Shown here one piece after another: positions 4,027-26,600 of a stretch of DNA of 64,000 nt. This DNA comes from Eledone cirrhosa (taxonomy: Eukaryota). Position 1 is the first letter of the stretch. Each line of letters opens with the position of its first letter. The notes beneath the pieces were generated by a model that was not told the origin of the DNA, did not search any database, and was given only the letters and a program-made list of their open reading frames with translations. Made by a program: the position numbers and the translations under genes. Location: the NCBI GenBank assembly GCA_964016885.1, contig OZ024741.1, forward strand, positions 413,726,001 to 413,790,000, given 5' to 3'.

Positions 4027-4613
<587 letters not shown>

Positions 4614-4614
4614 A

Positions 4615-4658
<44 letters not shown>

Positions 4659-6150: not shown

Positions 6151-6182
<32 letters not shown>

Positions 6183-6596
6183 AACTAAGATGCTTCCATA
6201 GGCGGTATGCCGTTTGAGCACGCTATGCTCTTATGGAGCAGAGTATTATAGAAAGGAAAACGAAAAATCAATGATGCATCGGAACTCAATTTATTGTGTG
6301 TTGCAATTGTTTCCCCGGCGAACAGCTCGAGGTGCGATCCGTGTGTGGATCGACCTGACTCTAGACTCGCAGGTTCCTCGGACACGTTTAGTGATTTCGG
6401 AGCATATCCTCTTTCTGGGGTTTTCTGGCCTTACAAGCCTATATCGTCCACTTTCATCCGCTTTGAGCGTCCTTGAGTTGGTCACTGGTTAGTGACGTCA
6501 TCATTATTCTGACCACTTGTATCAGCCCGCTGACCGTCAGGGCATAGGCTGTCACTCACCCACTGTCCCGTCGGCAAAATTACTGGTTTGTCAGCT

Positions 6597-6970
6597 CACA
6601 CTCCCACTCGCGCACACACACACACACACAGATACTGACAGATACAAACAGAGTAGCTTGTGTGCTTACGTTCACACACAGAAATAGTCACACAAATATA
6701 CGCATACATGCACACAGAGGCACACACGCACATGTATATACGCACACATATACACAGACACACACACATACATGCACAGACACACACGTACACATCCGTA
6801 CATATACATACACTCACAGATATATATATACACATACATACATTTACACACATATATATATATATACACACACACATACCCTAATACATTTTTTCCCTTG
6901 CACGTGTGCATACACACACAGACTCGCACATATATTCTTACACATATATTCTTACACATATGTATATGTA
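6597..6970. repeat. Degenerate (CA)/(TA) low-complexity tract
   Basis: Mixed CA/TA dinucleotide repeats. Confidence 0.9.
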
Positions 6971-7636
6971 AAAAATGAAACGAAATTTCATTTCTCACTC
7001 TTAGTACGGCTTTACAAACACACCGAGCATTATAATAAATGTTCGGTGAATCCATACGTACATATATATATGTGTGCATGTATGTATATATATATACATA
7101 CTACTGTACGTCTGTATACATATATGTATGTACGTATACATACTTATATTTAAGTAACAGCCGTACTAAGAGTGAGAAATGAAATTTTGTTTCATTTTTT
7201 CCGTTTATCGTTTTCGGTACCCCGGCCGATTAACTCACTCGATATGCAAATTAGGCTGCTCAGCCGTTAATATGCTTAAGAAAAGTATATACTTTCAGAC
7301 GTTCAACCATCTGGCAGGAAGGTATACGTTGCTGACAATAGCTAATAAGCATGAAACTAGTACAGCGTTCCTTTGTTAGTGTTGAACAAATGAGCAACGA
7401 TGGTTGCTAGACACTGTACGGCTTAATTCGAGATGTTTGTTTGTTTACAAACACACCAAGCATTATAATAAATGTTCGGTGAATTCATACGTACATATAT
7501 ATATGTGTGCATGTATGTATATATACATACTACTGTACGTCTGTATACATATATGTATGTACGTGTACATACTTATATTTAAGTAACAGCCGTACTAAGA
7601 GTGAGAAATGAAATTTCGGTTCATTTTTTCCGTTTA
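6971..7636 (+). mobile_element. Non-coding retrozyme-like / non-autonomous PLE element (~433-bp unit, ~1.4 copies, short inverted head)
   Basis: 7011-7207 is repeated at 7444-7636. 6971-7010 is the reverse complement of 7160-7200. Hammerhead-like fold at 7326-7368. No credible ORF. Confidence 0.65.
7326..7368 (+). ncRNA. Degenerate minimal type I hammerhead ribozyme
   Basis: ACGTTG-CTGACAA-TAGC(TAATAA)GCAT-GAAA-CTAG-TA-CAGCGT: 6-bp stem I and a palindromic CTAG loop III. The core has a G8>A change and stem II is imperfect. Confidence 0.6.
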
Positions 7637-8052
7637 TATATATATATTTATATATACGTACAAAATTCTTTCCTCGCTCACATTCACACGGCCAAGATGT
7701 GTCTTTCGTCTTCTCGTCAATATTCGCACGTGCTTATGTTCAAAATGAATCATTGACTTGATTTTCTCATTTTTTCCTCTCTTTACGTTGCCTCACTATT
7801 CCTATTTGTCTCTCTTTCTCCACCCAACTCTTTTTATCCCAATAACTTATTTTAGTTATTGTATTGCCCTAGCCTGAGGTATATGGTCTGTAATGTGAAG
7901 AAATACCTATGATGGCTAGTAAACCACTGATGATGGATAGTCCTGGCTTCTATTTCTAATTCTTTATTATATATATCATATTTGCAACAACACAGCTCGC
8001 CATTTTCCATTCATATATATATACACACACACACACACATATATATATGTAC

Positions 8053-8083
<31 letters not shown>

Positions 8084-8637
8084 TACACACATACATATAT
8101 ATATATGTATATGTATATATATATATATGTATATAGTGAAATAAAATAACAAGGATGATTGGTTACTCCTTCATTATGTTTATTGGTTGGTGACGCGCGT
8201 TTCTCCACTGATCAGCTGAATGTTCGATCTGTATCGATCTGACCTGACTCTGTAATCTGTGGCTCGTCAGACCCCTTGTAATGTTAATGGAAAAATGAAT
8301 ACATGCTGTATGATAAAGTCAGAAGTTCCTATGGTGGTCAGTAAAGTTTGTTTTGATTGGTGGATTAATTCATAGGGATGTTTTTGCCTATTATTATTTT
8401 ACATCTGCTTTTCCCTGCATATGTATGTTGTTGCCAACAATAGCAGCTGAAACCAACCAATGAAAAGTTGCCACAATCATTCATTGACAAGTTCTGTCTC
8501 TCTGAAGTATAACTCCTTAGGTAAATATTACCTTATGGTTCCGGCTGACAGAATTATGAATGTGTTAACCTGGAAGTTAGCAAGAGAGAGAAATACACTG
8601 AAACAGACATTCGAATTTGCACAGCTTATCGTTGGCC

Positions 8638-8820
8638 AAGTCTCCCCTATTATAGGTCCAGGAAGCCAGGACACCAGAAGTCTTCCCTGTTACCAGTTTA
8701 GGGACCCAGAACACTATAACTCTCCCCTGTTATTGATCCAGTAACACAGAACACCAGAAGTCTCCCCTGTTATAGGTCCAGTGACCCAGGAGATTAGAGG
8801 TTTCCCCTGTTATAGGTTCC
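8638..8820. repeat. 40-bp minisatellite, ~4.5 diverged copies
   Basis: TCTCCCCTGTTATAGGTCCAG-like units start at 8641, 8681, 8721, 8761 and 8801. Confidence 0.85.
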
Positions 8821-9199
8821 ATAATAAACCTATTTGAAAGCAGCTGATTCTTCAAGAACCTGTTGAACAACAAAAGCTGGATCTGCCACTGAATTCACTA
8901 GGTTGCTACTGGAGAAAGTGTCACAGCATATCATGTCCTAGATGAGGTCACTTACCACCATGGAACAGGAAGATTGTGATGCCATCTGTTTTTTTTTTTG
9001 TTGTCCTCACTATCTAATCCCACCAGTTCAAGCTGTGATGAGAAACCAGAAGTATGCAAGGCACAGCGGCCAGTACAGAGACAGCATGAGAGCAGATAAA
9101 GACTGTAAGTAGCTGCCATGAATCCACAACAGCATTTGTATTGTTTCCAGATTTGAAGACAAAACCTCAAGAATCTTTAAAATTTCTGTGAGAAATGAG

Positions 9200-10670
9200 T
9201 AACGTTACTCCAAAGACCCTTTAGAGGAACCCCATTTCGGCTGCTTGTATTTGCGATCGTATTCTTTCAGTCATTACGCAAGATTCATGATCATAGGTAA
9301 GGGTTGGCACAAATACCAAATTGAAGGTAGTGAGTTTGCCTTTTACACTTACCTCTGTTCTTCTGATTACCGAATGCTGAAGCTGGTGCATTATTGCACC
9401 AATTCTTGCAATTCTTGCACCAAATTCAGCCTCCTGCCTTGAACCTCTCCATATGTTTCAGTGGAACTCCATTCACATGTAGTGTGCACTGCACAGGCTT
9501 CCTTGAGAGGACGAGTGTCTCAGTCTTCATTCCAGCCATGCAGCACTCGGCATCAAACCTATCAAGTGCAAATCGGAGATCACTTTCTGTTGAGTTAAGT
9601 AACACCATGTTGTCTGCAAATTCCTGCCAACTGATTTTCCACCTATCAGTTGTGATACCACATCCAACCCAGCTGTGCATATCAATCCTGTTCATGAAAA
9701 TAATGAACAGGAGAGGTGACAGTACGCACCCTTGGTGGAGTCTGACTCCTACATATGATTTAGCACCATTTATCTAAACACAAATACTCAGGCATTCATA
9801 CAGAGACATCAAGGCAGCAAGAAGCTGACCATTAACCCCATACTCCTGCAAAACCTTTCATAGCAGTTCACAACCATATACCTCTTGGCAATAATTCCAT
9901 GATTTCTCGAAGACCTGCCGCAGTGTGGATATTTGGTTGGCTGTGCTGCACCCGGGGTGAACCACAGTTCACCAGCTAGCTTGGACTCAACAATCTCCAT
10001 ACATTTCTTTACCAGACAGCATAGACTTTACTGGGGAGGTTTAACTTGGAGATCCCTCTGTAATTGGAACAATCTCTCTTGTCTCCCTTTTTGAAAATTG
10101 GGATTATCACTCCCGATTGCCATTACTTAGGTACCCATCCAGAGATCCAGGCCCCCCAGCACACATGAGTCAGCCAGAGAATAACTTCTCTATTTAAGGC
10201 TTTTAACATCTCTGGCTGGATTTCATCTTCCCCATCGGCCTTGCCACATTTGAGCTCTTTAACTACTCTTGTGACCTCAGCCTCCAAGAGATTAGTCATC
10301 GCTACCAAATACACCTCGTTTACGATGAGATGCAGTTATGATTGGGTTTAGGAGATCAGCAAAGTATTCTCTGCACCTCTCTGGTGAGAAAACACCAGAC
10401 GTGTTCATGATAGCGTGCGATGGAGAGCTTCTTACTACAAAGTCGAGGGATGGTCTGCCAGAATACTTTATTTGCTGATCCAATGTCAGATTCCAGCTTA
10501 GTACCCAAGTCCTCCCATGTCTTAACTGTGGATGCCTTTACTGTCTCTGTTTCGATTCGTTGTGCTTGTTTGTACCGCAAATGCAAGGAGGACTTATTTC
10601 CAAGCCAAACATGGTGGGGTCCTTCTGTCATCTGGCGCCACACCAAGCCTCTTTCACACAGTGATTCCAA
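9200..10670 (-). mobile_element. Decayed non-LTR retrotransposon (RTE-like) RT fragment
   Basis: Minus-strand fragments [44 protein letters not shown] and FADNMVLL, with many frameshifts and stops. Confidence 0.8.
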
Positions 10671-10672
10671 AT

Positions 10673-11488
10673 ACCATATTTCTAATGAAAGGCACTGTCT
10701 ATGTTGTTTAACCCTTTCATTACCATATTTCTAATGTAAGACACTGTCTATGTTGTTTAACCCTTCCATTACCATATTTCTATTGTAAGACACTGTCTAT
10801 GTTGTTTAACCCTTTCATTACCATATTTCTAATGTAAGATACTGTCTATGTTGTTTAACCCTTCCATTACCATATTTCTATTGTAAGACACTGTCTATGT
10901 TGTTTAACCCTTTCATTACCATATTTCTAATGTAAGATACTGTCTATGTTGTTTAACCCTTCCATTACCATATTTCTAATGTAAGACACTGTCTATGTTG
11001 TTTAACCCTTTCATTACTATATTTCTAATGTAAGACACTGTCTATGTTGTTTAACCCTTTCATTACCATATTTCTAATGTAAGATACTGTCTATGTTGTT
11101 TAACCCTTTCATTACCATATTTCTAATGTAAGATACTGTCTATGTTGTTTAACCCTTCCATTACCATATTTCTATTGTAAGACACTGTCTATGTTGTTTA
11201 ACCCTTTCATTACCATATTTCTAATGTAAGACACTGTCTATGTTGTTTAACCCTTTCATTACTATATTTCTAATGTAAGACACTGTCTATGTTGTTTAAC
11301 CCTTTCATTACCATATTTCTAATGTAAGACACTGTCTATGTTGTTTAACCCTTTCATTACCATATTTCTAATGTAAGATACTGTCTATGTTGTTTAACCC
11401 TTCCATTACCATATTTCTAATGTAAGACGCTGTCTATGTTGTTTAACCCTTTCATTAACCATATTTCTAATATAAGACACTGTCTATG
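10673..11488. repeat. 49-bp minisatellite, ~17 copies
   Basis: Unit ACCATATTTCTAATGTAAGACACTGTCTATGTTGTTTAACCCTTTCATT, highly homogeneous. Confidence 0.98.
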
Positions 11489-11548
11489 ATATATACACTC
11501 TCTATGATATATACACCATATACTCAGCTGTTTAATTTCTTCTTTCAG

Positions 11549-11660
11549 GTGATTCAGACATTTATTTCTTCAAAAGATGAAATGTTTAAGGTTCTCTCTA
11601 TGATGACTATGGCATATATAGTTGAAGAGGAAGATAACCAGGCATTGATTGAGGAAACTG
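11549..11660 (+). CDS. Internal exon A of an armadillo-like repeat / TIR-domain protein gene
   Basis: Acceptor tttcttctttcag| and donor |gtgaac. Encodes VIQTFISSKDEMFKVLSMMTMAYIVEEEDNQALIEET-G. Ends in phase 1, matching the next exon. Confidence 0.8.
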
Positions 11661-11688
11661 GTGAACATATATTTTGCATTTTTTTGTA

Positions 11689-11690
<2 letters not shown>

Positions 11691-11756
<66 letters not shown>

Positions 11757-11826
11757 TCTCTCTTCTCTTCTCTCTCTCTCTCCCTCTCTCTCTTCTCTTC
11801 TCTCTCTCTCTCTCTCCCTCTTCTCT

Positions 11827-11872
<46 letters not shown>
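11691..11872. repeat. (CT)n followed by (TA)n microsatellite
   Basis: Read directly from the sequence. Confidence 0.97.
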
Positions 11873-11877
<5 letters not shown>

Positions 11878-12098
11878 GTTGGTGCTCTGAAATAGCGATG
11901 TATATATGAATGTACATATTGTATATTTACTAATATTAAAAAACTATTTTGCTGAATCTAGGTATGTGACTATAGTCGCGACCTTAAATTCATAGCAGAA
12001 GGCCTTCAAAATGTTTTTTAAATAAACATACAGTATATTATTAAATCTACAATACATACATTCATATATACATCACTATTTCAGAGCTCCAACACAAA
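11872..12098. mobile_element. Foldback/MITE-like element (internally deleted); related copies at ~13960-14165 and ~19997-20301
   Basis: TTTGTGTTGGTGCTCTGAAATAGCGATGTATATATGAATG is inverted to CATTCATATATACATCACTATTTCAGAGCTCCAACACAAA. The core GTGACTATAGTC..CCTTAAATTCATAG..GGCCTTCAAAATG is shared with the other copies. Confidence 0.6.
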
Positions 12099-12149
12099 TG
12101 TTTAATTGTTGCTGGGCTGACAACCGCTCTGTATGTTAATGAGTTTAAA

Positions 12150-13920
12150 CAGCTTGAATTTTACAACTCTGGAGATGTGAACACCATACTCCAGAATATC
12201 CTGAACTCAATATGGACAGCATGTGCAGCATCAGTACCACGTAAGCACAAAAAACATCCCAAAATTGCAATTTGGGAGACTGTAGCAGTCCAACTTGCCA
12301 GGAAAGAACATCATTGCTGAACGGGAATACAAACTGCATAAATCAGATATCAATAGAAAAAAAGTGCAATAAATCATCCAACCATCTCAAGCAAGGGACA
12401 AAAAAGTCAGTGCTTGAATTTGAATAGTGCATAGCAACCAACCCTGACAGCAAAGTGTCCTGGAAATATCTATATTCAAAGCAGAGACCTCACTCTCCAG
12501 TTGGTCTTCCTCGCAATCCCCACACAAGCCAGATTACTGACGACCTCAAAGAATGCGTAGACCTCATTGCTGAATGCTATGCAGGCATTTTTACTGTTGA
12601 AAACCAAAACATACCATCTCCAGCACCTCTGACATAAAGTTCTATAACAACTATGGAATTTACACCTGCCATGCTGTGACGTCACCTTAAGAATAAATGC
12701 AACCATGCTTCTCTCCTGGTCTTGATGGTGTTACATACCTGCTTCTCAAACATGGCGGGTACTTCCTTCTGCACCGGCTATCACTCTTCTTTCAATTCTG
12801 TCTGAACAATGGTACTACTCCGGAGCAGTGGAAAACTGCCAGTGTCATTCCTCTCTTCAAAAAGGGTGACCGCACATCTCCTGTCAACTATCGTCCAGAG
12901 ATCTGTTCTTGGTCCCTTTTTGTTTGTTGCATATATTAATAATAGATGCCAACTTAAAGAATGCCACACTACTGAAATATGCAGATGACATCAAGCTGTA
13001 CCTTGAGATAAAAAGGACAGATCCTGAACACTATAGATCTTTCCTGCAATTAGACCTGGACACAATGCAGCAACGGATCATGGACTGGCAACTCAAGCTG
13101 GCTGTGGACAAGTGTACCACCATGCATTTTGGGAGTAAAAACCCAGCGTCCACATACTCCCTCCACAACACTAATATCAAGAAGTCTTCTTGTGAACGTG
13201 ACCTGGGCATTACTATCAGCAGTGAACGAAGCACTTCTCTAAAATTGTCAAGAAGGGTGTCTTGGCATCACTCAGCAAGACCTTTGTCAGCCACTCTCCA
13301 GCTATTTATTTAAAGCTGTATATAGCTATTGTGCGGCCACATTTAGAATTTGTATCATCAGTCTGTAACCCCTATCTTGCTCAGAACATTAACCTCCTGG
13401 AAACTGTTCAGGGACATGCAACCAAACGAATACCCTCCATCAGGCATCTACCATACTCTGAACGCCTTGCTTCCCTGGGCATGGATACATTGAAGCTCTG
13501 ATGTCTGGCAACTGACTTGGTAAACACCCACAAAATTATTAACCATCTTACCAACAACAACCTTGAGCACCTTTTTGATTTCCATGTGTCTAACAGCCGT
13601 GGGCATGCCTACAAAGTCAGAAAACAGTACATCTTTCGGAAACATTTTTTCATGCTCAGAGTTGCTGAAGCATGAAACAAACTACCTGCATCAGTTGTTA
13701 GCTGTCGGCATACTGCATCCTTCAAAACTACCATGCTTCCTGAAATTTGCCAATACTATACTTGATATCCCTCTTCCATACACACGCACACATGTATATC
13801 ATGACTCATACACTGTTCACTTTCCTGACATTTTTACATTATTCTATGTACTATACATGCACCTTTGATGAGTTGTAATGCACCTTAGCACTGTACACAA
13901 TAATTTCATTATTATTATTT
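12150..13920 (+). mobile_element. Decayed CR1/L2-group LINE RT fragment with an internal deletion
   Basis: SPGLDGV..LLK, WKTASVIPLFKKGDRTSPVNYRP, KYADDIKLY, ERDLGI and LYIAIVRPHLE motifs across frames. (ATT)n tail at ~13908. Confidence 0.85.
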
Positions 13921-14161
13921 TAAACATAATTGGTATTCTATAAGAATCCAGCTTCTACAGTTCACAGCAAAAACAGGGGCGACATATAGCCTTGATAACT
14001 GCTAAACGGTGAGAAACAATCAATCATTGGTTATTTCCCTTTGCTTTTGCTGAAGTTAGGTATGTGACTGCAGTTGCTCTCTTAAATTCATTGTGAAAAA
14101 CCTTCAAAAGGTTTTTTAAATAAACATAGAGTATATTATTAAATATACAATACATATATTC

Positions 14162-14206
<45 letters not shown>

Positions 14207-14207
14207 G

Positions 14208-14390
14208 TTCCACACTGTAAATGTGGTTGGTGTTAGGAAGGGCATCCAGCCGTAGAAAACCTGCCAGATAGTCGTATATGAGCGAGACACGGTCACCCGA
14301 CCAGCCTTGTCTCAAGAGGGACAACTCCCGTCTAACCCATGCTAGCGTGGAAAATGGACGTTAAACGAAGATGATGAGATGATGATGATA
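14208..14390 (+). mobile_element. RTE/SINE 3' tail fragment
   Basis: CCACACTGTAAATGTGGTTGGTGTTAGGAAGGGCATCCAGCCGTAGAAA...GGACGTTAAACG..GATGATG. Confidence 0.8.
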
Positions 14391-14399
14391 TATATGAAT

Positions 14400-14738
14400 A
14401 TAAAGAATCACCCAGCATGTGAACGACTTTGAAGATTTGCTGACCATGGGGGAGAGGAGGAAGCTGAGGTGGTATGTTCATGTAACAAGATCAGATAGAT
14501 TTGCAAAGGTGATTCTCCAGGGAACAGTACAGGGCAAGAGAAAGCAAGGCAACAGAGGAAATGGTGGACAGATAACAGCACACCATCACAACGTAACTGA
14601 GTGGGAAGGAATGAACTTTGCTACAACCCAAGTACTCACCCATGGCTGTCGGAGATGGAAGCAGTTGGTGCAAAATTGAACAGTGCAGTGCCCCAACGAC
14701 CCCGTAAGGGGTTAGGGGACCATGATGATGATGGTGAT
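14400..14738 (+). mobile_element. 3' end of a second RTE-type LINE family
   Basis: RRKLRWYVHVTRSDRFAKVILQGTVQGKRKQG resembles the RTE ORF C-terminus (LRWFGHV.R...QG.V.GKR..GR). GAT tail. Confidence 0.7.
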
Positions 14739-15165
14739 ATACTGCACACACACACATATATATATATATCATCATCATCATTTTACGTCCGCTTTTCCCT
14801 GCTTGCAAGGGTGGGATGGGTCCTATTCAGCACAGCATCTCTCCACTTGTCACGGTCCTTCATCATTTCCTATATATCAATATATACCTGTCTATCTAAC
14901 TATCTATCACATTCTCTCCCTCTCTGTCTATTTATCTATCTTACTTTCTTTCATCTCTCTCTTTCCTTCCTTTCACTCCTCTCCCTCAAAATATCCAGGT
15001 GTGGTCAATACCATGTCACAAATTAAAGATAAGGTCAGTTGTCATTGGAGCTTTGGACTTGAGAGGGGAGGGGTCATGTAACTTGAGCAAGATCTCATAA
15101 TGCACATTGTTTTCTACCAAAACACCTTGTTTGTTGGGCACCATAATACATTCAGGAAAGTAACG

Positions 15166-15682
15166 TCTTTCTAAGGTCCTTGTTGATATTTAACAGGCGG
15201 TAGAGCATCCAATCTTTCTAAGGTCCTTGTTGATATTTAACACACGGTAGAGCATCCAATCTTTCTAAGGTCCTTGTTGATATTTAACAGGCGGTAGAGC
15301 ATCCAATCTTTCTAAGGTCCTTGTTGATATTTAACACACGGTAGAGCATCCAATCTTTCTAAGGTCCTTGTTGATATTTAACAGGCGGTAGAGCGTCCAA
15401 TCTTTCTAAGGTCCTTGTTGATATTTAACAGGCGGTAGAGCATCCAATCTTTCTAAGGTCCTTGTTGATATTTAACAGGCGGTAGAGCATCCAATCTTTC
15501 TAAGGTCCTTGTTTCTATTTAACAGGCGGTAGAGCATCCAATCTTTCTAAGGTCCTTGTTGATATTTAACACACGGTAGAGCGTCCAATCTTTCTAAGGT
15601 CCTTGTTGATATTTAACACACGGTAGAGCATCCAATCTTTCTAAGGTCCTTGTTTCTATTTAACAGGCGGTAGAGCATCCAA
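15166..15682. repeat. 47-bp minisatellite, 11 copies
   Basis: Unit TCTTTCTAAGGTCCTTGTTGATATTTAACAGGCGGTAGAGCATCCAA; 517 bp = 11 x 47. Confidence 0.98.
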
Positions 15683-15711
15683 TAATCATCATATTTATTG
15701 TACAAATAATA

Positions 15712-15872
15712 ATTGTTTCTACTTTAAACACAAGGCCAGCAATTACTCAGTGCATTACTGGTACTTTATTTTATTAACCTCGGTGGGGTTTGAACTCAGA
15801 CCGTAAGGGCTCATAACTCTATGCTGCAAAGCATGGCATTTGACTCTCTACCCACACTGCCAATCCATAGCC

Positions 15873-15917
<45 letters not shown>

Positions 15918-16010
15918 TGTTTCTACTTTAGGCACAAGGCCAGCAATTACCCAGTGCATTACTGGTACTTTATTTTATCGACCCCGTAAGGATGAAAGGC
16001 AAAATGACTA
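15712..16010 (-). mobile_element. Two fragments of a tRNA-derived SINE separated by (AAT)n
   Basis: Reverse complement has B box TCTGAGTTCAAACCCC and TTTGCCTTTCATCCTTACGGGGTCGATAAAATAAAGTACCAGT. The same family appears at 22190-22295 and 21685-21750. Confidence 0.6.
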
Positions 16011-16045
16011 AATATATAATGAAATATAGATTTCAGAGGCCCTAA

Positions 16046-16215
16046 GGGGCCACATGAGATAAGCTAAGAGGCCACATGCGATAAGCTTTAGAGCCACATG
16101 TGATAAGTGATGGGGCCACATGCGATAAGCTAAAGAGCCACATGTGATAAGCTAAATAGCCACATGTAATGGGGCTAAAGAGTCACATGTGATGGGGCTA
16201 AAGAGTCACATGTGG
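16046..16215. repeat. 22-23-bp minisatellite, 8 copies, each with CACATG
   Basis: GAGCCACATGTGATAAGCTAAA-like units with CACATG every 22-23 bp. Confidence 0.9.
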
Positions 16216-16281
16216 TTCTGAAGCTGTAGATTTTCCCAAAGCTTTGCTGTTGTATTATAATGCTTGTTTCTCTCTCCCCAG

Positions 16282-16415
16282 GCAGTATACTGTGTATGCT
16301 CCAATGGCTTGATAAAGCCCTCGACTGCAATAAAAGACGCTACAAAGGGTTCACACCATATGAAATTGTACAAGGCTTGGAGAAGCTGGCAGTTACAGAT
16401 TCTAACAAATTGAAG
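16282..16415 (+). CDS. Internal exon B of the ARM/TIR protein gene
   Basis: Acceptor tttctctctccccag| and donor AAG|gtaatg. G+GC completes Gly. Encodes GSILCMLQWLDKALDCNKRRYKGFTPYEIVQGLEKLAVTDSNKLK. Confidence 0.85.
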
Positions 16416-16959
16416 GTAATGTCTTCTTTTTTGTTTTTTTCTAAAGAAGTTAACATTCTTTATACCAACTCAGCTGAAATTGTGCCCTGGTTTTATAATA
16501 CAAAACTGTTATAAAGTGTTTATATTGAGGGATGGGCTCTGCCAGGCTTAAAATCCCCTAGAAATGCCATATGTTACTATGGCACATCTACAACTCCATC
16601 AGGTATTATAGAGTTATACAAACAGATTTTTTTCTAAAACCTCGCTGTGTGTATCTTGTTTAAAATAGGTACACTGTATCCTGGCATGTCCTAAGAGAGT
16701 TGGCACGAGGAGAGGCATCTAGCTATAAAATACTGCCTCATAAAGGACCTCATGATAAATATAAAGCCTGCTATGGGGTATACAAGGCTAGCTTTTGTTT
16801 AAATAATAAAATACTCTTAACCCTTAACCTTTAACATTACACTATATTTACTATTGTATTTTCACAATATGATAATGAAAATTATTGTGTACAGTGCTCA
16901 GGTGCACTACAACTCATCAAAGGTGCATGTATAGTACATAGAATAATAAACAGTGTAAG

Positions 16960-17174
16960 ATTGCAAAAGGTTCCTGGCTTGATCACTGCCACAGAGGCCT
17001 GGTTGAAGGTACAACCTTCCGAGTTCTTTTTATAGGGCTTAGAAAAACTGGAGGACCACTGCAATAAGTGTGTGAATCTGATGAGAGGGGAATATGTTGA
17101 ATAAAATCATAATTAACTGATCCTCCTGTATTTTCTTTTAACCAAAGCCAGAAACTTTTCAGCACACCCTCGTA
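16960..17174 (-). mobile_element. Tc1/mariner-like non-autonomous fragment
   Basis: Minus strand starts TA-CGAGGGTGTGCTGAAAAGTTTCTGGCTT, a mariner-type terminus at a TA run. A degenerate inverted counterpart AAAAGGTTCCTGGCTT lies at ~16965. Confidence 0.55.
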
Positions 17175-17702
17175 TATATATATATATATATATACGAAAA
17201 TAGAGACATATATCATAAGAATAGAGAAGAAGGAACTATGATATAATATATTAGATGACTTTAGCTAAAACGAAGCATGCTCAATGCTTAGAAATGTGAT
17301 GTTAAATATTATAGTGGAGTTAATATTTAAGGAGAGTTATATGCAGAAGATAAGTAGAGCAGGAAAAATCAGAAATATATGGATGAGAAAGCAAGACATT
17401 TAAAAACAAAATTTAATTACACAGTGTTTCATCTTCAAGTAGATTTACAATATAGTAGGTAGACATATATGTGTGTATATATTCTACAGTAGAGATACAC
17501 TTATAAGACTCATCAGAGAGAAATGTTTATCCTTAAAGATGTCACATCAGGGATAGACTGCAGTCGTATGGACTTGGACTATCCCTTCAGTGATATTAGA
17601 AATATGGCAATGGAAGGGTTAACAGCCTTTCCTATTATTGTATAGCTGAAAGATAACACATATTAAATTGATTCTTAACTCTGTGTGTTTTTCTATTTCT
17701 AG

Positions 17703-17958
17703 ATCGTTGATGGTGGAATACTGTCAATGTTGAGTCGTATGTTACAGTGTGACGATGTCCGAGAACAGTGTTCAGCTGCAAGAATTCTGTGGACGTTAGT
17801 ATTTGATGAAAATGTCCGCGAACGATTATTAAATGATGAACAGGAGTTGGTGAATTTACTAGAATCTTTGAAAGATAACAAAGATAAACTCGTCAGTGCC
17901 AATGTGAAAGGGGTCCTCTGGTTATTAAACGGTGCAACTCAGGTGACAGAGGTGGACA
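17703..17958 (+). CDS. Internal exon C of the ARM/TIR protein gene (armadillo-like repeats)
   Basis: Acceptor tttttctatttctag| and donor |gtaagt. Encodes IVDGGILSMLSRMLQCDDVREQCSAARILWTLVFDENVRERLL...VSANVKGVLWLL, with ARM-like G-x-L-x2-L and AA-x2-LW-x-L patterns. Confidence 0.9.
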
Positions 17959-18124
17959 GTAAGTTTTTCAGGGTTTTTTTCACTGTTTGTCTAATTTGAA
18001 TTTTAGTGGGGGCAAGGCCAGATTTAATGGGGGATCAGGTGGAGGTAAATACCCTGAGCCACATTCATCAAACAGATCCTCCCTCCTTTGCAGATAGGGT
18101 CCCTTCTTCTCCCTCTCTTATGTG

Positions 18125-18171
<47 letters not shown>

Positions 18172-18360
18172 GGCCTAATGCATACGGATGCTTTAAGCAT
18201 CCCACACCAATTATATATATATATATATATGGGATGAGGTGATAAAAACCGACCTTACCCAATTACACCTCTCAAAGGCGATGACACACGTCTGTGACCT
18301 CTGGTGTCACACAGTAATACAGAAGACCCAATCCCCCACAGGTACAAGCCGAAGCTGAAG

Positions 18361-19998
18361 CATATAGATTTTCCTTGTACGACAACTACAGGAGAAGTAC
18401 CTAGCTAAAAGTAAACCCCTATACTTAGCTTTTGTTGACTTGGAGAAAGCATTTGACAGAGTCCCCCACGCCATTATCTGGTGGGCCCTTAGAAAACTAG
18501 GGGCTGATGAATGGCTTGTGAGAGCTATACAAGCTATGTTTAAAGAAACAGTCAGCAAGGTTAGAATTAACAACGAATATAGTGAAGAGTTTAGCGTAAA
18601 AGTTGGTGTTCATCAAGGCTCTGTCCTTAGTCCCCTCCCATTTATTATTGCCCTTCAGGTTATAACAGAGGAGTTCAAGACCGGCTGCCCTTGGAAACTT
18701 CTCTATGCAGATGATCTAACACTCATAGCTGAATCAATGGCTGAACTAGAGAAGAAATTCCAAACATGGAAGCATGGCCTAGAATCAAAAGGCCTTAAAG
18801 TTAACTTGTCTAAGACTAAAGTTCTAGTATGTAGGAAGGAAAATAGGGCACAGGTCCCCTCTGAGAAATGGCCATGCTCAGTGTGTAGGAAAGAAGTAGG
18901 CAGAAATTCCATTTTATGTCCCACATGCAAAGTATGGGTGCATAAAAGATGTAGTGGGATCACAGGTAAGCTAACTAAGAATATAGATTTTATATGTGGC
19001 CAGTGCTCAGGTGCAATAAGTAGCAAGTGCCCACAGGATACTAGCTCCTTCTATTGCCCAGATGGCTCTATAGAAATAGTGGACACCTTCCGTTACCTGG
19101 GTAACAAAATCAGCAGTGGTGGAGGGTGCTCAGAAAGTACAGTGGCCAGAGTCAGAATGGGATGGAAAAAATTCAGAGAGCTTATACCACTATTGGCCGC
19201 TAAAGGTTTCTCTCTAAAAATGAAAGGCAGATTGTATGATGCCTGCATACGAACAGCTATGTTACATGGCAGTGAGACTTGGGCATTGTGTGCAGAGGAT
19301 CTGCATAGACTGGAAAGGAACGAAGCTTGCATGCTCCATTGGATGTGTAATAGTAATATACGCGAACGGCAAAGCATAAATGAACTAAGTGAGAAATTAG
19401 GAATAAGAGGGATCAGATGCTGTTTACTCGAGAGAAGACTACGTTGGTATGGCCACGTGATGCGCATGAAAGACGACAGCTGTATAAAAAAGTGCAGGGC
19501 GATCAAAATTGACGGAAGTAGGCAGACTCAGAAAAACCTGGGCCAATTTTATAAATTCCAACCTTACACACTTACACCTCTCTAAGACAATGTCACTGGA
19601 TCAAGATCTTTGGCGCTACGCAGTAATACAGAAGACCCGCCTTGCCTAAGTACAAAGCGAAACCTTCCGTCTGTAGGCACCTCTTAACCAAATATACACC
19701 CCAACTCCCCCACCCCACCAACATCACCCTTTCTCTGTCCGAAATAAATAAGGTCATGTAGGTGTCACGACAAAAAAACACACAGTCCACGCTGTAATGT
19801 GGCCGTGTAGGTAACACAGTAAAACCTCCCAGTCCACACTGTAAACGTGGTTGGTGTTAGGAAGGGCATCCAGCCGTAGAAAATCTTCCAGACAGTCCTA
19901 TACGAGCAAGACAACCAATCTTGCCTCTAGTGGGGCAATTCCCGTCTAAACCCATGCTAGCGTGGAAGACAGACGTTAAACGATGATGATGATGATGA
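18361..19998 (+). mobile_element. 5'-truncated RTE-clade LINE, relatively young
   Basis: RT reading frame (IFLVRQLQEK..AFVDLEKAFDRVP..GVHQGSVLSP..LLYADDL..FRYLG) followed by a 3' UTR with tandem units and a (GAT)n tail. Confidence 0.92.
18440..19585 (+). pseudogene. Reverse transcriptase (RTE clade) with an embedded PHD-like Cys/His finger; truncated and frameshifted near 19516
   Basis: YADD catalytic motif. C-x2-C...C-x2-C-x4-H-x2-C...C-x2-C cluster. Comparison with the copy at ~1440 shows a small deletion that shifts the GRPRKTW frame. Confidence 0.88.
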
Positions 19999-20301
19999 TA
20001 TATGAATGTATCTATTGTATATTTAATAATATACTTTATGTTTATTTAAAAAACATTTTGAAGGCCTTTCGCTATGAATTGAAGGTAGCGACTACAGTCA
20101 CACACCTTGATTCAGCACAAACAAAGGGAAATAACTGACGATCGATCGCTTAGCAGTTATCAAGGCGATATATCGCCTCTGTCTTTGCTGAAGCTATGTG
20201 ACTATAGTCACTACCTTAAATTCATAGTAAAAGGCCTTCAAAATGTTTTTAAATAAACCTACATTCATATATACATCGCTATTTCAGAGCTCTAACGCAA
20301 A
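19997..20301. mobile_element. Foldback/MITE-like element with long inverted arms
   Basis: ~20040-20120 is inverted to ~20183-20258. Internal palindromes AGGCGATATATCGCCT and GTGACTATAGTCAC. Confidence 0.6.
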
Positions 20302-20689
20302 TATATATATATATATTTATATATTTATATATATATATATATATACAAGTTAATATAAATTAATATATATGATAAAACACAAATACCAACATATAAGTGT
20401 TTGTATTGTAAATGACTAAGTTAGCTAGATTGAAAAATACTAATTATAATAATACAGTTTGCCTGTCTCGATTTAAAATAATAAATCAATAAAAACAAAC
20501 GATATTGGCAAATGGCCGTGGTACTTAGACAAATTTAAATTTCAAAATCAAACCTGTTCCGTAGATAAGTTTAAACTTCAAAATCCATATTACACGGCTC
20601 AGAAATACTTCTTTCTTTGAGCTATTTCATTGTAAAGGACTGCTTGAGTTTAGAACTCATTATTCTTAGTATATATATATAAACAATAT

Positions 20690-21100
20690 GCCCCCACACC
20701 CCCCACCGCAAGGTGGTCGTGGAGGTGCCACGGCAAAAAAGCACCCAGCCCACACTGTAAACGTGTAGGCGCCACGAAAAAGCACCCAGCACTCACTGTA
20801 AATGAGGTTGGTGTTAAGAAGGGCATCCAGCTGTAGAAATCAAGCCAGATCAGTTCCTGTATGAGCAAGGCATGGTCAGCCGACCAGACACTGCACACAA
20901 CAGGACAACCCGTCTAACCCATGCTAGCGTGGAAGAACGGACGTAAAACGGTGATGATGATGATGATGATGTGTGTGTGTGTGTGTAAAGTGGTTGTGTA
21001 GGTGTCACAATAAAAAGCACCCAGCCCACACTGTTAATGTGGTTGGCCATAGAAACCAAACCAAAATCAGTTCTGTCTGAGCAAGAATGGTCATCTGACC
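20690..21100 (+). mobile_element. Two SINE/RTE tail fragments
   Basis: Near-identical to 4400-4560 (GTGGTCGTGGAGGTGCCACGGCAAAAAAGCACCCAGCCCACACTGTAAA). (GAT)n at ~20952. Confidence 0.8.
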
Positions 21101-21391
21101 TAACATGCAGCTGGCTGAGTATTCCACAGACATGTACAGCATAACAGTGTATAACAAGTCCATCTTGAATTACAGTGTAAGTTGGCTGAGTATTCCACAG
21201 TCAGGTGTAGCCTTAATCTAGTTCTCAGGGAGATTCAGCAGTGTCTGACATGGCTGCCCCTTTAAATTACAGGTACAACTAATGGACTAGAAAAAAACAC
21301 AACACACTCCTGGGAATCAAACTCATCAACCATGAATTCTGAAGTAAACACCCTAACCACAAAGCCATGCACCTTCAGAGCTGAAAGACAC

Positions 21392-21662
21392 CTCATCACT
21401 TCTTGTCTCTCTTCCACTCCACCACTTCTTGTCTCTCCCCCACCCACCACTTCCTCTCCCTTCCCAACCACACTACTTCCAGTCTTTCTTCCACCCCACC
21501 ACTTCTTGTCCCTTCTCCACCCCACCACTTCCTGTCTCTCCACCCCACCACTTCCTGTCTCTCCCCCACCCACCACTTCCTGTCCCTTCCCCCACCCCAC
21601 TACTTCCTGTCTCTCCCCACCCACCACTTCCTGTCTCCCCCCACCCCACCACTTCCTTCTCT
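21392..21662. repeat. C-rich ~22-bp minisatellite
   Basis: Repeats of CCCACCACTTCCTGTCTCTCCCC. Confidence 0.9.
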
Positions 21663-22061
21663 CTGTCTTAAAATCCCACACAAGTCAACTTTGCCTTTCA
21701 TCTTTTCGAGGTCAATCAAAATAAAGTACCAGTGAAATACTGGGGTTGATTCCTCCTCTACATCCCTTTCTCTGGAAGAAATCTACTGAGAGAAGGGCTC
21801 TGCCAGGCTTAAAATAAAGCCCTAGAAACACTGTATGTCAATATGCCGCCTTTATGACTTCCTCAGGAGTTACGGAGCGACGGGGTCCATACCATATGTC
21901 AATATGGCACCCCTACAACTCCCTCAGGTGTTATGGCACCATATGTCTGTACAGCACCCCTAAAACTCCATTATGGGTAAAAAATAAGAGGGAGATATTA
22001 TCAAGTAGGCTGCTATTATTGTCAAAAAAAAAACCAAATTAAAATATTTTATTATTTCCAG

Positions 22062-22156
22062 AAGAGACAGTTCGTGCCAGGGCCAAAACCCATGTGTTCA
22101 TCAGTTACTCTGTTGTAGATAAAGAAAGTGTATGGAGAGTGAGAGACAGGTTAAAG
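22062..22156 (+). CDS. Internal exon D of the ARM/TIR protein gene (start of the TIR domain)
   Basis: Acceptor ttttattatttccag| and donor AAG|gttggt. A+AA completes Lys. Encodes KETVRARAKTHVFISYSVVDKESVWRVRDRLK; HVFISYS matches TIR box 1 (beta-A) followed by helix A. Too short to appear in the ORF track. Confidence 0.85.
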
Positions 22157-22189
22157 GTTGGTATATTATTATTGTTATTATCATTAGTA

Positions 22190-22295
22190 ATTGGTAGAGC
22201 GTCGGACACCATGCGTCAAGGCTTAGAGTTACTGTACTTTATGTTCTGAGTTCAAATCCCACCAAGGTTAGCTTTGCCTTTCATCCTTACGGGGG
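22190..22295 (+). mobile_element. tRNA-derived SINE head fragment
   Basis: GGTAGAGCGTCGG...GTTCTGAGTTCAAATCCC B box, then TTTGCCTTTCATCCTT. Confidence 0.6.
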
Positions 22296-23496
22296 TGGTG
22301 TGGTTTACTAAATTGTTGTAATCTGTTGGTAGAGGAAGGTTTACTAATCAATATATCGATGATTCATCTTTGATCACTAAACACTCACGTCTATTAGCTT
22401 CATGTTAATGTCAAATGTCAGGCTAATATTTTGGGTGGAAGAGAGAAAATAGTAAAACGAACGCTAATGAAGAATTTGGTTAAAGGGAGGTAAATCTCTG
22501 CTGCCATTTCTTTATTTCTCTGTAAAATGGCAGAAAGAAATATTTCTTGTATTTTTTAAACTAAAGAAAGACCAGAAATCTTCTGGCATAGAAAAAGAAA
22601 TATTTTAACATTATTAATATATTCTTTATTAGCAATTTCATTGCCTCATTTTTAGTGAAAAACAATGCTGGTTATTTTCAAATATTTTGAAAATTATCTG
22701 GAATTTGGAGGGATTTAGTAATACAACTAACTTTCTCATTATTAACAGCTTTGTTTACTATATTTTTAATTAAAGACACTACCTTTAATTTTCAAATTAC
22801 TTTGAAAATAATCAAGATTTTCAAGCTGGTATTTGGAACATAGTGTACCAAGAATTGTTACATAAAATTAGGATGGAACCTGGGGGTGGAATGCTGGGCT
22901 TAGGGGTTTTGTTGTTGTATACTTCTAGGAGACACATCCAGGGCCTTTTCACTCCTGTTGGAGGAATCCTTCCTTGGTTGAGCTCCATTGCTTTCTGTTT
23001 GGTTTTAGTTATGTCAGGGTGTAGCCATACTCACTACACTTCCCTGTTTGTGAGTTGGTGAGGTTCTGCAGAGTTCATCCAGGTTATCAACAAACCACTC
23101 AACCATGAAGCAAGTTGTATTGGGTTATATGGTGCAGTGTAGCAGCCAGAAAGATGATCTCATATAGGAATGTTACTGGCTAATTTTCTATGGTAGAATG
23201 AATTTCCTAACATCAACCACATTGACAGTGTGTGGGGCTGGATGCTTTTTGCTGTGTCTTTTACACGTCCACTTTACAGTGTGGAGGGCTGGATGTTTTG
23301 TGGTACCAGCATAATATACATATATATATATGTGTGTGTGTTTACATGCACATATCATGATAATGATAAGCACATATATATATGTTTGTGTGCATATAAA
23401 TATACCATATATGTAATATACATACACATATCATACATATAAGCACTTCATACATATACATACGCACTTCATATATATATATACACATATAAATAT

Positions 23497-23667
23497 ATCA
23501 TCGACCTCATTGATTAGTGTCCATCATTCATGAGAAGGACGGATTGACCCTTGTTTAGCTCAGCCGGGGCAGATTTTGGCTTGGTTTCTACAGCTGGGTA
23601 CCCTTTAGTGTGTGAGGAGTGCTTCATGTTGTATCACCTACACAACCAAATTACAGTGGGGCCTGGA
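23497..23667 (-). mobile_element. Minus-strand SINE/RTE tail that leads into the satellite
   Basis: Reverse complement of 23576-23606 (AAAGGGTACCCAGCTGTAGAAACCAAGCCAA) matches SINE tail 20818-20848 (GAAGGGCATCCAGCTGTAGAAATCAAGCCAG). Confidence 0.7.
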
Positions 23668-26600
23668 CACCTTGTCATGTCACCGACATGACCACTTTAC
23701 AGTGTGGACTGAGGGCCTTTGTCATGTCACCGACATGACCACTTTACAGTGTGGACTGAGGGCCTTTGTCATGTCACCGACATGACCACTTTACAGTGTG
23801 GACTGACAACCTTTGTCATGTCACCAGCATGACCACTTTACAGTGTGGACTGAGGACCTTTGTCATGTCACCGACATGACCACTCTACAGTGTGGACTGA
23901 GGGTCTTTGTCATGTCACCGACACGACCACTTTACAGTGTGGACTGAGGAACTTTGTCATGTCACCTACATGACCACTTTACAGTGTGGACTGAGAACCT
24001 TTGTCATGTCACCAGCATGACCACTTTACAGTGTGGACTGAGGACCTTTGTCATGTCACCGACATGACCACTCTACAGTGTGGACTGAGGGTCTTTGTCA
24101 TGTCACCGACACGACCACTTTACAGTGTGGACTGAGGAAATTTGTCATGTCACCTACATGACCACTTTACAGTGTGGACTGAGGACCTTTGTCATGTCAC
24201 CGACACGACCACTTTACAGTGTGGACTGAGGACCTTTGTCATGTCACCGACATGACCACTTTACAGTGTGGACTGAGAACCTTTGTCATGTCACCAGCAT
24301 GACCACTTTACAGTGTGGACTGAGGACCTTTGTCATGTCACCGACACGACCACTTTACAGTGTGGACTGAGGACCTTTGTCATGTCACCGACATGACCAC
24401 TTTACAGTGTGGACTGAGGACCTTTGTCATGTCACCGACATGACCACTTTACAGTGTGGACTGAGGGCCTTTGTCATGTCCCTGACATGACCACTCTACA
24501 GTGTGGACTGAGGGTCTTTGTCATGTCACCGACACGACCACTTTACAGTGTGGACTGAGGACCTTTGTCATGTCACCAGCATGACCACTTTACAGTGTGG
24601 ACTGAGGACCTTTGTCATGTTACCGACATGACCACTCTACAGTGTGGACTGAGGGTCTTTGTCATGTCACCGACACGACCACTTTACAGTGTGGACTGAG
24701 GACCTTTGTCATGTCACCGACATGACCACTTTACAGTGTGGACTGAGGACCTTTGTCATGTCACCGACATGACCACTTTACAGTGTGGACTGAGGGCCTT
24801 TGTCATGTCACCAACATGACCACTTTGCAGTGTGGACTGAGGACCTTTGTCATGTCACCGACATGACCACTTTACAGTGTGGACTGAGAACCTTTGTCAT
24901 GTCACCAGCAAGACCACTTTACAGTGTGGACTGAGGACCTTTGTCATGTCACCGACACGACCACTTTGCAGTGTGGACTGAGGACCTTTGTCATGTCACC
25001 TACATGACCACTTTGCAGTGTGGACTGAGGACCTTTGTCATGTCACCTACATGACCACTTTACAGTGTGGACTGAGAACCTTTGTCATGTCACCAGCATG
25101 ACCACTTTACAGTGTGGACTGAGGACCTTTATCATGTCACTGACACGTCCACTTTACAGTGTGGACTGAGGACCTTTGTCATGTCACCAGCATGACCACT
25201 TTACAGTGTGGACTGAGGACCTTTGGTATGTCACGGACAGGACCACTTTACAGTGTGGACTGAGGACCTTTGTCATGTCACTGACACGACCACTTTGCAG
25301 TGTCGACTGAGGACCTTTGTCATGTCACCAGCATGACCACTTTACAGTGTGGACTGAGGACCTCTGTCATGTCACCGACAGGACCACTTTACAGTGTGGA
25401 CTGAGGACCTTTGTCATGTCACCGACATGACCACTTTACAGTGTGGACTGAGGACCTTTGTCATGTCACCTACATGACCACTTTACAGTGTGGACTGAGG
25501 GCCTTTGTCATGTCAACATGACCACATTACAGTGTGGACTGAGGACCTTTGTCATGTCACCAACTTGACCACTTTACAGTGTGGACTGAGGACCTTTGTC
25601 ATGTCACAGACACAACCACTTTACAGGGTTGACTGAGGACCTTTGTCATGTCACGGACATGACCACTTTACAGTGTGGACTGAGGACCTTTGTCATGTCA
25701 CCTACATGACCACTTTACAGTGTGGACTGAGGGCCTTTGTCATGTCACCTACACGACCACTTTGCAGTGTGGACTGAGGACCTTTGTCATTGCACCGACA
25801 TGACCACTTTACAGTGTGGACTGAGGACCTTTATCATGTCACCGACACGACCACTTTGCAGTGTGGACTGAGGACCTTTGTCATGTCACCGACACGACCA
25901 CTTTGCAGTGTGGACTGAGGACCTTTGTCATGTCACCGACATGACCACTTTACAGTGTGGACTGAGGGCCTTTGTCATGTCACCGACATGACCACTTTAC
26001 AGTGTGGACTGAGGACCTTTATCATGTCACCGACACGACCACTTTGCAGTGTGGACTGAGGACCTTTGTCATGTCATTGACACGACCACTTTACAGTGTG
26101 GACTGAGGACCTTTGTCATGTCACCGACAGGACCACTTTACAGTTGGACTGAGGACCTTTGTCATGTCACCGACATGACCACTTTACAGTGTGGACTGAG
26201 GACCTTTGTCATGTCACCTACACGACCACTTTACAGTGTGTACTGAGGACCTTTGTCATGTCACCGACATGACCACTTTACAGTGTGGACTGAGGACCTT
26301 TGTCATGTCACTGACACGACCACTTTGCAGTGTGGACTGAGGACCTTTGTCATGTCACCTACATGACCACTTTACAGTGTGGACTGAGGACCTTTGTCAT
26401 GTCACCTACATGACCTCTTTACAGTGTGGACTGAGGACCTTTGTCATGTCACCGACATGACCACTTTACAGTGTGGACTGAGGACCTTTGTCATGTCACT
26501 GACACGACCACTTTGCAGTGTGGACTGAGGACCTTTGTCATGTCACCAGCATGACCACTTTACAGTGTGGACTGAGGACCTTTGTCATGTCACCGACAGG

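What the first reader, a model, noticed from the sequence alone, without database searches (positions are those of the whole stretch)
11549..22156. Hidden spliced ARM-TIR gene (candidate innate-immune adaptor or NADase)
Seen: four exons with canonical splice sites and matching phases (0-1-0-1-0) join into 199 stop-free codons. The product is a helical ARM-like region leading directly into HVFISYS. Known: F-I-S-Y is the TIR beta-A signature, and SARM1 couples ARM repeats to a TIR NADase through SAM domains. Here no SAM domains separate ARM from TIR, so it resembles the poorly characterised invertebrate ARM-TIR proteins rather than SARM1. Inference: an autoinhibited TIR signalling or enzymatic protein. 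The catalytic Glu region is not in this window.
Basis: partly seen in the sequence, partly recalled or inferred. Interest (0 to 1): 0.75.

Follow-up and report, generated by a model that had tools for sequence, protein, structure and literature searches.

The report
Octopus armadillo-TIR-SAM gene, catalogued but untested
These four exons are the real, spliced middle of an octopus gene already annotated in related species; its protein has the same three kinds of domain as the nerve-death enzyme SARM1 in a different order, belongs to an old family for which I found no functional study, and likely cuts NAD+ when switched on, though octopus-specific changes may weaken it.

Summary
Four exons (11549-11660, 16282-16415, 17703-17958, 22062-22156; AG/GT; phases 0-1-0-1-0) give 199 stop-free codons, 192/199 identical to Octopus bimaculoides LOC106868605. 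A public contig joins exons 2-3-4 without a mismatch.

They are exons 5-8 of at least 13 coding exons spread over 405 kb. The TIR continues after a 141.6-kb intron filled by a 47-bp satellite, and the helix-C Glu is there (213 of 216 homologues keep it).

It is not SARM1. A 2026 TIR atlas lists the orthologue in its uncharacterised clade 10 (SARM1 is clade 8), and an Aplysia survey lists the sea-hare orthologue as ARM-TIR. The family runs from amoebae and choanoflagellates to lamprey, eel and lungfish.

Likely mechanism (inferred): an ARM-gated, SAM-clustered NAD+-processing TIR, about 0.5. Against this, octopods replaced family-conserved TIR residues (Trp418, Gly447 to Pro, Thr449) that a second octopus paralogue keeps, and only 12 of 61 Glu-bearing animal TIRs were active in a recent screen. 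Verdict: a real gene, a new member of a known but unstudied kind.

The parts
11549..11660 (+). Coding exon 5 of 13 found (112 nt, phase 0-1); ARM repeats, P0001 aa 234-271
16282..16415 (+). Coding exon 6 (134 nt, phase 1-0); ARM repeats
   Evidence: joined to exon 7 in the X1 contig
17703..17958 (+). Coding exon 7 (256 nt, phase 0-1); last two ARM repeats, aa 316-400
   Evidence: X1 contig
22062..22156 (+). Coding exon 8 (95 nt, phase 1-0); linker helix, TIR beta-A and alpha-A. HVFISYS at 22091-22111; codon 22112-22114 is Val where 192 of 209 non-octopod homologues have Trp
22157..64000 (+). Start of the 141,603-nt intron that splits the TIR domain. The next exon is at G000:C2:413,889,760; five further exons finish the TIR, the linker and the SAM-like domain, with the stop at C2:413,905,683
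23651..64000 (.). 47-bp tandem array inside that intron; it continues beyond the window to window-equivalent 163,070 (about 139.4 kb, 2,970 copies)
1..11548 (+). End of the 43,746-nt intron before exon 5; four upstream coding exons lie at C2:413,501,109-413,693,802

Best explanation
The four exons are the spliced middle of an intact octopus gene for an ARM-TIR-SAM protein of TIR-atlas clade 10, which likely works as a switchable NAD+-processing signalling enzyme. Shown: exon structure, open frame, splicing of exons 6-7-8, orthology and helix-C Glu. Predicted by folding: domain order and folds. Inferred by analogy to SARM1 and other enzymatic TIRs: (1) at rest the armadillo solenoid (aa 73-390) holds the adjacent TIR (aa 411-535) so that TIRs cannot self-associate; (2) a ligand, more likely a peptide or protein in the armadillo groove than NMN, releases it; (3) the C-terminal SAM-like domain (aa 596-663), on a 40-aa disordered tether, clusters the molecules; (4) assembled TIRs cleave NAD+ through Glu480 to give ADPR or a cADPR isomer as a stress or immune signal. 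In octopods the TIR pocket and BB loop carry lineage-specific changes, so activity may be reduced or retuned.
For: Gene: 13 exons, all AG/GT, one open frame of 642 codons plus stop over 404,575 nt, 604/639 identical to P0001 (computed with one boundary 3 nt off, corrected). Folds: AlphaFold2 model of P0001, pLDDT 83, pTM 0.72. The ARM part matches canonical armadillos (Z 20-23). In the model of homologue P0162 the TIR matches Hydra TRR-2 (Z 17.0) and SARM1 TIR (Z 15.9, rmsd 2.0, 125 aligned), and the C-terminal domain matches a SARM1 SAM (Z 10.0, rmsd 2.3, 69 aligned). Glu480 lies on helix C, aligns with the Glu of the C-x-x-E motif of Cat1 (E 0.0069), and is kept in 213 of 216 homologues covering the TIR. 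The TIR is the most conserved domain (mean 55% versus 34% ARM and 35% SAM; 125/129 between Octopus and Argonauta). The same helix-C motif is visible in amoebozoan and diatom clade-10 rows. Hurieva et al. (10.64898/2026.04.20.719644, parts 1-4 of 6 read) report Glu-dependent cADPR production by non-TLR animal TIRs from mollusc, rotifer, echinoderm, lancelet and fish, and their Fig. 3 legend lists an ARM architecture. A pTM of 0.72 with 109 disordered residues is compatible with a fixed ARM-TIR orientation; this is my inference, as no PAE was seen.
Against: No activity was measured. In the same screen only 12 of 61 Glu-bearing animal TIRs were active, and TLR2, IL-1R9 and IL-1R10 have the Glu yet showed no activity. 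The Trp four residues before the Glu, seen in Cat1, is Asn or Ser in this family (151 and 40 of 216). The octopus protein departs from the family at Trp418 (Val; Trp in 192 of 209 non-octopod homologues, Val in 0), Gly447 (Pro; Gly in 187, Pro in 0) and Thr449 (Asn; Thr in 153, Asn in 1). A Gly-to-Pro change in the SARM1 BB loop (G601P) disrupts its active interface (PMC8635717 passage); that Gly447 is the counterpart is my inference, within one residue. The TIR fold scores about as well against TIRs filed as scaffolds (TRR-2 17.0, IL-1RAcPb 15.7, MyD88 15.5) as against SARM1. An immune role rests only on family analogy.
Confidence: 0.5

Rival explanations
1. The protein is a non-enzymatic scaffold or adaptor: the ARM binds a partner, and TIR and SAM polymerise to recruit signalling proteins; the Glu is structural.
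For: The TIR fold is as close to TRR-2, IL-1RAcPb and MyD88 as to SARM1. Most Glu-bearing animal TIRs were inactive in the E. coli screen (49 of 61). The minus-4 Trp is missing family-wide. Surveys file ARM-TIRs as putative TLR adaptors.
Against: Near-invariant helix-C residues (Cys477 207, Arg478 210, Glu480 213, Tyr483 209 of 216) are kept from amoebae to octopus. There is no death-domain hit. The orthologue is not in the TLR/MyD88 clade 1. The screen's authors note that it misses unmeasured products and oligomer-dependent activity.
Confidence: 0.28
2. The family is enzymatic, but this octopod copy has become a weakened or pseudo-enzyme or makes a different product, while the paralogue on contig C12 keeps the ancestral activity.
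For: Changes at 418, 447 and 449 are confined to octopods, with a partial set in the unnamed close relative P0008. The C12 paralogue keeps Trp, Gly-Gly-Ser-Thr and Asn at these places, plus the Glu.
Against: The Glu and the rest of helix C are intact. The TIR is 97% identical between Octopus and Argonauta and 93% to P0008, higher than ARM or SAM. That shows constraint but does not tell which function is constrained.
Confidence: 0.18
3. It is the octopus SARM1 orthologue with rearranged or mis-predicted domains.
For: It has the same three module types. SARM1 clusters appear among ESM-Atlas look-alikes (0.94) and among Foldseek hits.
Against: The order is ARM-TIR-SAM with one SAM. The orthologue is in clade 10 and SARM1 in clade 8. 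Whole-chain TM to SARM1 chains is only 0.18-0.21. Aplysia has separately listed SARMs.
Confidence: 0.02
4. Chance exon chain, pseudogene, or a gene broken by the 139-kb satellite.
For: The introns are very long. The junction across the satellite intron was not observed directly.
Against: 192/199 identity, no stops in 13 exons, and a spliced contig. That contig has 1,165 nt beyond exon 8, where 699 coding nt remain, and its match ends one base into the donor, as expected since the next exon begins with G.
Confidence: 0.02

Closest known systems
O. bimaculoides LOC106868605 / O. sinensis LOC115218870 (uncharacterised RefSeq genes)
   Same: Orthologue: 94.5% identical over 639 aa, collinear over all 13 exons.
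   Different: Species-level substitutions only; the short first coding exon(s) of isoforms X1 and X2 were not found in the 60 kb searched.
Clade 10 of the eukaryotic TIR atlas (PMC13142454 / 10.64898/2026.04.30.722052)
   Same: The orthologue EP00106_P001990 is listed there as Clade_10 with ARM-like, TIR and SAM_3 labels. The clade has 408 rows; 16 of the 53 rows I saw carry a SAM label, always behind the TIR, in amoebozoans, choanoflagellates and sea urchin. The authors call the clade uncharacterised.
   Different: Octopods carry Val418, Pro447 and Asn449 against the Trp, Gly, Thr consensus.
Invertebrate 'ARM-TIR' class (Zhang 2015, PMC4346834; Kron 2022, PMC9334734)
   Same: The Aplysia orthologue LOC101845869 (P0036) is listed as ARM-TIR and falls with the octopus protein in a 26-row mollusc clade with SH-aLRT 100 (quick tree).
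   Different: That class is a domain label that also holds MyD88-like and SARM genes. It does not record the C-terminal SAM, and no function is given.
SARM1 / C. elegans TIR-1
   Same: ARM, SAM and TIR modules; helix-C Glu; TIR Z 15.9, SAM Z 10.0.
   Different: SARM1 is ARM-SAM-SAM-TIR. Here it is ARM-TIR-SAM with one SAM, a TIR from another clade, and an ARM closer to canonical peptide-binding armadillos.
Cat1 (CRISPR-associated TIR), the best TIR sequence match among solved structures
   Same: Aligns over beta-A to helix C, with the Cys and Glu matched (E 0.0069).
   Different: Bacterial, with different accessory domains; it has the minus-4 Trp that this family lacks.

Membership tests
SARM1 | Order ARM-SAM-SAM-TIR, with tandem SAMs before a C-terminal TIR | tested here: not met
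   ARM 73-390, TIR 411-535, single SAM-like 596-663
SARM1 | TIR in the SARM1 clade (atlas clade 8) | tested here: not met
   The orthologue is listed in clade 10; taken from the paper's table, no TIR tree with SARM1 was built here
SARM1 | ARM with an NMN/NAD+ allosteric pocket | tested here: inconclusive
   The top 50 VIA rows are canonical armadillos; SARM1 chains match with low TM; pocket residues were not compared
Enzymatic TIR (NADase / cADPR synthase) | Glu on helix C | tested here: met
   Glu480 is in this genome, on helix 475-486, and in 213 of 216 homologues
Enzymatic TIR (NADase / cADPR synthase) | Trp four residues before the Glu (seen in Cat1; recalled for SARM1 and plant TIRs; common, not strictly defining) | tested here: not met
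   Ser in octopus; Asn 151 and Ser 40 of 216
Enzymatic TIR (NADase / cADPR synthase) | BB loop able to form the head-to-tail BE interface | tested here: inconclusive
   Asp441 is kept (211 of 216); family Gly447 is Pro in octopods; the effect is unknown
Enzymatic TIR (NADase / cADPR synthase) | Measured NAD+ cleavage | not testable with these tools
   Needs an assay
TIR-atlas clade 10 | TIR groups with clade 10 | tested here: met
   The 94% identical orthologue is listed as Clade_10
Invertebrate ARM-TIR class | Armadillo fold plus TIR domain | tested here: met
   the Aplysia orthologue is listed as ARM-TIR. The Pfam ARM_PUB score (27.5 bits) is below its cut-off of 33; the ARM call rests on profile and fold matches
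MyD88-type adaptor | Death domain plus a clade-1 TIR | tested here: not met
   No death-domain hit at E up to 1; clade 10
ecTIR-DC families (Gerdol 2017) | Assignment to a numbered ecTIR-DC family | not tested
   The paper is not held; seen only as cited in PMC6321704

The most novel reading that the evidence does not exclude
Clade-10 ARM-TIR-SAM proteins are an ancient eukaryotic NAD+-signalling enzyme family that assembled SARM1's three modules independently and in another order, uses its armadillo groove as a protein sensor, and survives from amoebae to lamprey, eel and lungfish but not in the usual model animals. Octopods have split it into a consensus enzyme (C12 paralogue) and this retuned copy (Trp418, Gly447, Thr449 changed), a natural enzyme/pseudo-enzyme or product-switch pair.
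Probability: 0.25. Interest if true: 0.75.

Novelty: new member of a known kind. Interest (0 to 1): 0.36.

Why it matters
The gene itself is no discovery: its orthologue is annotated and catalogued. What matters is the family. It is large, reaches from amoebae to vertebrates, is described as uncharacterised, keeps the catalytic Glu, and carries SARM1's modules in a different order. It therefore offers a direct test of whether animals have a second class of regulated NAD+-processing TIR enzymes. The octopus pair (one consensus paralogue, one altered orthologue) gives a ready comparison. The 139-kb satellite inside an apparently working gene is a side curiosity of octopus genome structure.

Tried and rejected
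- Run search: no RNA holder listed; four runs of unrecorded kind from one study. X1 behaves as RNA because of the intron-free join. It may come from the same study as the genome, so it is not independent of it.
- Sequence searches of solved structures with the full-length profiles A1 and A2 were swamped by armadillo hits. A residue-level alignment to the SARM1 TIR was never obtained, so the SARM1 numbering equivalences are inferred.
- In one search several armadillo-peptide fusions align out to model residue 474, which might hint that the TIR sits near the groove. This is too indirect, and I did not use it.
- A separate octopus SARM1 gene was not established. The TIR_2 search gave 13 matches, none recognised as SARM1 by eye. 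I saw 12 of 16 O. bimaculoides atlas rows, none clade 8.
- The first short coding exon was not found in 60 kb of loci upstream of and around the first exon found.
- A processed retrocopy as the source of the spliced contig is unlikely: exon 3 has one genomic match (that search gives lower bounds).
- The careful tree did not finish; the quick tree of 51 chosen rows (of 220 held) is used only for the mollusc clade.
- Literature: 'ARM-TIR-SAM' gave 0 papers; one search gave 0; searches listed no functional study of this family. Supplementary Table S4 of Hurieva et al. could not be seen and may include tested members, which would change the 'untested' claim.
- Earlier-findings look-ups by sequence and by place were empty.
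Full report
1. Observation. The four exons are as described: 11549-11660, 16282-16415, 17703-17958 and 22062-22156. Each has an AG acceptor and a GT donor; together they make 597 nt, phases 0-1-0-1-0, 199 codons and no stop. The window is G000:C2:413,726,001-413,790,000 of a 3.0-Gb genome, an octopus by protein identity. A search with exon 3 returned 2 proteins among 67 candidates: O. bimaculoides LOC106868605 (P0001, 664 aa, 94%) and its Argonauta orthologue. The 199 aa equal P0001 residues 234-432 at 192 positions without gaps.

2. Splicing. No holder is on record as RNA. Still, run X1 has a 2,650-nt contig whose positions 1000-1486 lie consecutively on window 16281-16413, 17701-17958 and 22062-22157 with no mismatch, while the listed contigs of X2-X4 run through the exon edges as DNA. 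This shows two of the three junctions. The contig leaves the genome one base outside the outer splice sites, as expected from the neighbouring exons. It has 1,000 nt before and 1,165 nt after, where 747 and 699 coding nt are predicted. All four runs come from one study.

3. The whole gene. The genome search and tblastn found 13 coding exons from C2:413,501,109 to the stop at 413,905,683 (404,575 nt). All are AG/GT and form one open frame of 642 codons, 604/639 identical to P0001. The window holds exons 5-8. The TIR is split after helix A by a 141,603-nt intron, nearly all of it a 47-bp array (2,970 copies; units about 91% alike at every lag tested from 1 to 1,000, so no higher-order period was seen). 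The helix-C Glu (Glu480 in P0001 numbering) is present, its codon split by a phase-1 intron. A paralogue of the same layout lies on C12:32.26-32.30 Mb, with an intron at the same place before the Glu.

4. Anatomy. Pfam on P0001 gives TIR_2 412-530 (E 3.9e-22), ARM_PUB 234-384 (E 2.7e-6, below its cut-off) and weak SAM hits at 595-630 (E 0.014-0.057). The AlphaFold2 model (67 sequences; pLDDT 83, pTM 0.72) shows disorder at 1-66, a helical solenoid at 73-390, a TIR at 411-535, disorder at 547-588 and a helical domain at 596-663. The solenoid matches designed armadillos, Vac8, APC and beta-catenin (Z 20-23); SARM1 chains match with TM 0.18-0.21. A model of the shorter homologue P0162 matches TIRs (TRR-2 Z 17.0, SARM1 15.9, IL-1RAcPb 15.7, MyD88 15.5), and its last 80 residues match a SARM1 SAM (Z 10.0, rmsd 2.3, 69 aligned, 26% identity). 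A Z of 10 on a small helical domain is moderate evidence, but it agrees with the Pfam hits and the atlas label. Conserved Asn and Trp residues on successive ARM helices (Asn163 168/197, Asn215 191/197, Trp345 184/197, Trp388 160/197) recall the peptide-binding groove of armadillo proteins; that comparison is from memory.

5. Family. One search gave 77 homologues and one search gave 89: molluscs, annelids, nemertean, brachiopod, rotifer, echinoderms, hemichordates, lancelets, tunicate, coral, lamprey, eel and relatives, and lungfish. The profile search found 2,026 representatives at E up to 1e-30 (those beyond the 150 listed were not inspected and may include plain ARM proteins). In a quick tree of 51 rows the octopus protein sits in a 26-row mollusc clade (SH-aLRT 100) with Aplysia LOC101845869, which Kron 2022 lists as ARM-TIR (PMC9334734 supplement rows). 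The TIR atlas (PMC13142454, supplement rows; bioRxiv section 5 read) lists the O. bimaculoides isoform P001990 in Clade_10. It puts SARM1 in clade 8 and TLRs and MyD88 in clade 1, and says clades 10-13 are uncharacterised and absent from routine model organisms. I saw 53 of 408 clade-10 rows: amoebozoans, choanoflagellates, diatoms, chrysophytes and sea urchin; 16 have a SAM label, all behind the TIR.

6. Catalytic features. Of 220 stored proteins, 216 cover the TIR (related sequences, seven of them octopod). Glu480 is kept in 213, Cys477 in 207, Arg478 in 210, Tyr471 in 212, Tyr483 in 209, Trp505 in 215 and Asp441 in 211; two of the three Glu exceptions have a gap in the motif. The Glu aligns with that of Cat1's C-x-x-E motif. 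Results against the enzyme reading: the minus-4 Trp is absent family-wide. Octopods differ from the family at Trp418 (Val or Ile), Gly447 (Pro) and Thr449 (Asn); the O. bimaculoides residue occurs in 0, 0 and 1 of 209 non-octopod homologues, and this genome has the same residues. The C12 paralogue keeps the consensus. An earlier AI note prompted the explicit count. PMC8635717 (passages) names SARM1 G601P as disrupting the active BE interface; the equivalence to Gly447 is inferred. Even so, the TIR is the most constrained domain in octopods (97% to Argonauta, against 91% ARM and 83% SAM).

7. Mechanism. The best reading, about 0.5, is an ARM-gated, SAM-clustered NAD+-processing TIR, by analogy with SARM1 (PMC8494770 and PMC8635717 passages). 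Hurieva et al. (10.64898/2026.04.20.719644; parts 1-4 of 6 read, supplements not seen) found 12 of 61 Glu-bearing animal TIRs active in E. coli, mostly making cADPR and mostly outside the TLR clades, with stated blind spots. That supports plausibility and also sets a modest base rate. Rivals: scaffold 0.28, weakened or retuned octopod copy 0.18, SARM1 orthologue 0.02, broken gene 0.02. Every step from gating to product is inferred.

8. Novelty. The gene is a new genome's copy of an annotated, catalogued gene. No functional study was found in eight searches. Gerdol 2017 was not held, and an unseen supplement may hold assays. Other papers seen as passages only: PMC4346834, PMC6321704, PMC7075850. 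Verdict: real; first reading partly right; new member of a known but unstudied kind; interest 0.36.

Noticed in passing
window 23651-64000, continuing to G000:C2:413,889,070: A 47-bp satellite of about 139.4 kb (2,970 copies; 683 distinct units among 2,782 full-length ones; no higher-order period seen) fills 98% of the intron that splits the TIR domain.
   Followed up: partly
G000:C12:32,263,000-32,300,300, minus strand (L025-L028): Second ARM-TIR-SAM paralogue; most of its ARM lies in one long open frame, its TIR keeps the family consensus and the Glu, and it shares the intron at the Glu codon.
   Followed up: partly
window 18368-19585 +: High-copy retroelement fragment in the intron between exons 7 and 8: RVT_1 (E 5e-23) followed by a PHD-like finger.
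   Followed up: partly
window 9429-9773 (-) and 12870-13310 (+): Further reverse-transcriptase fragments in introns.
   Followed up: no
window 10672-11488 and 15166-15683: Smaller intronic minisatellites (49 bp x 16.7 and 47 bp x 11), the first ending 60 nt before exon 5.
   Followed up: no
G000:C2:413,501,433-413,668,795: A second very long intron (167,363 nt) in the same gene; its content was not examined.
   Followed up: no
L042 (G000:C2:173,612,584-173,612,748, minus): Another non-TLR TIR exon with a similar beta-A and BB-loop motif, possibly a related atlas clade.
   Followed up: no
P0085, P0236, P0242, P0244, P0045: The family persists in lungfish, eel, Aldrovandia, tarpon and lamprey; one source labels the tarpon protein 'SARM1', which looks like a mislabel.
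   Followed up: no
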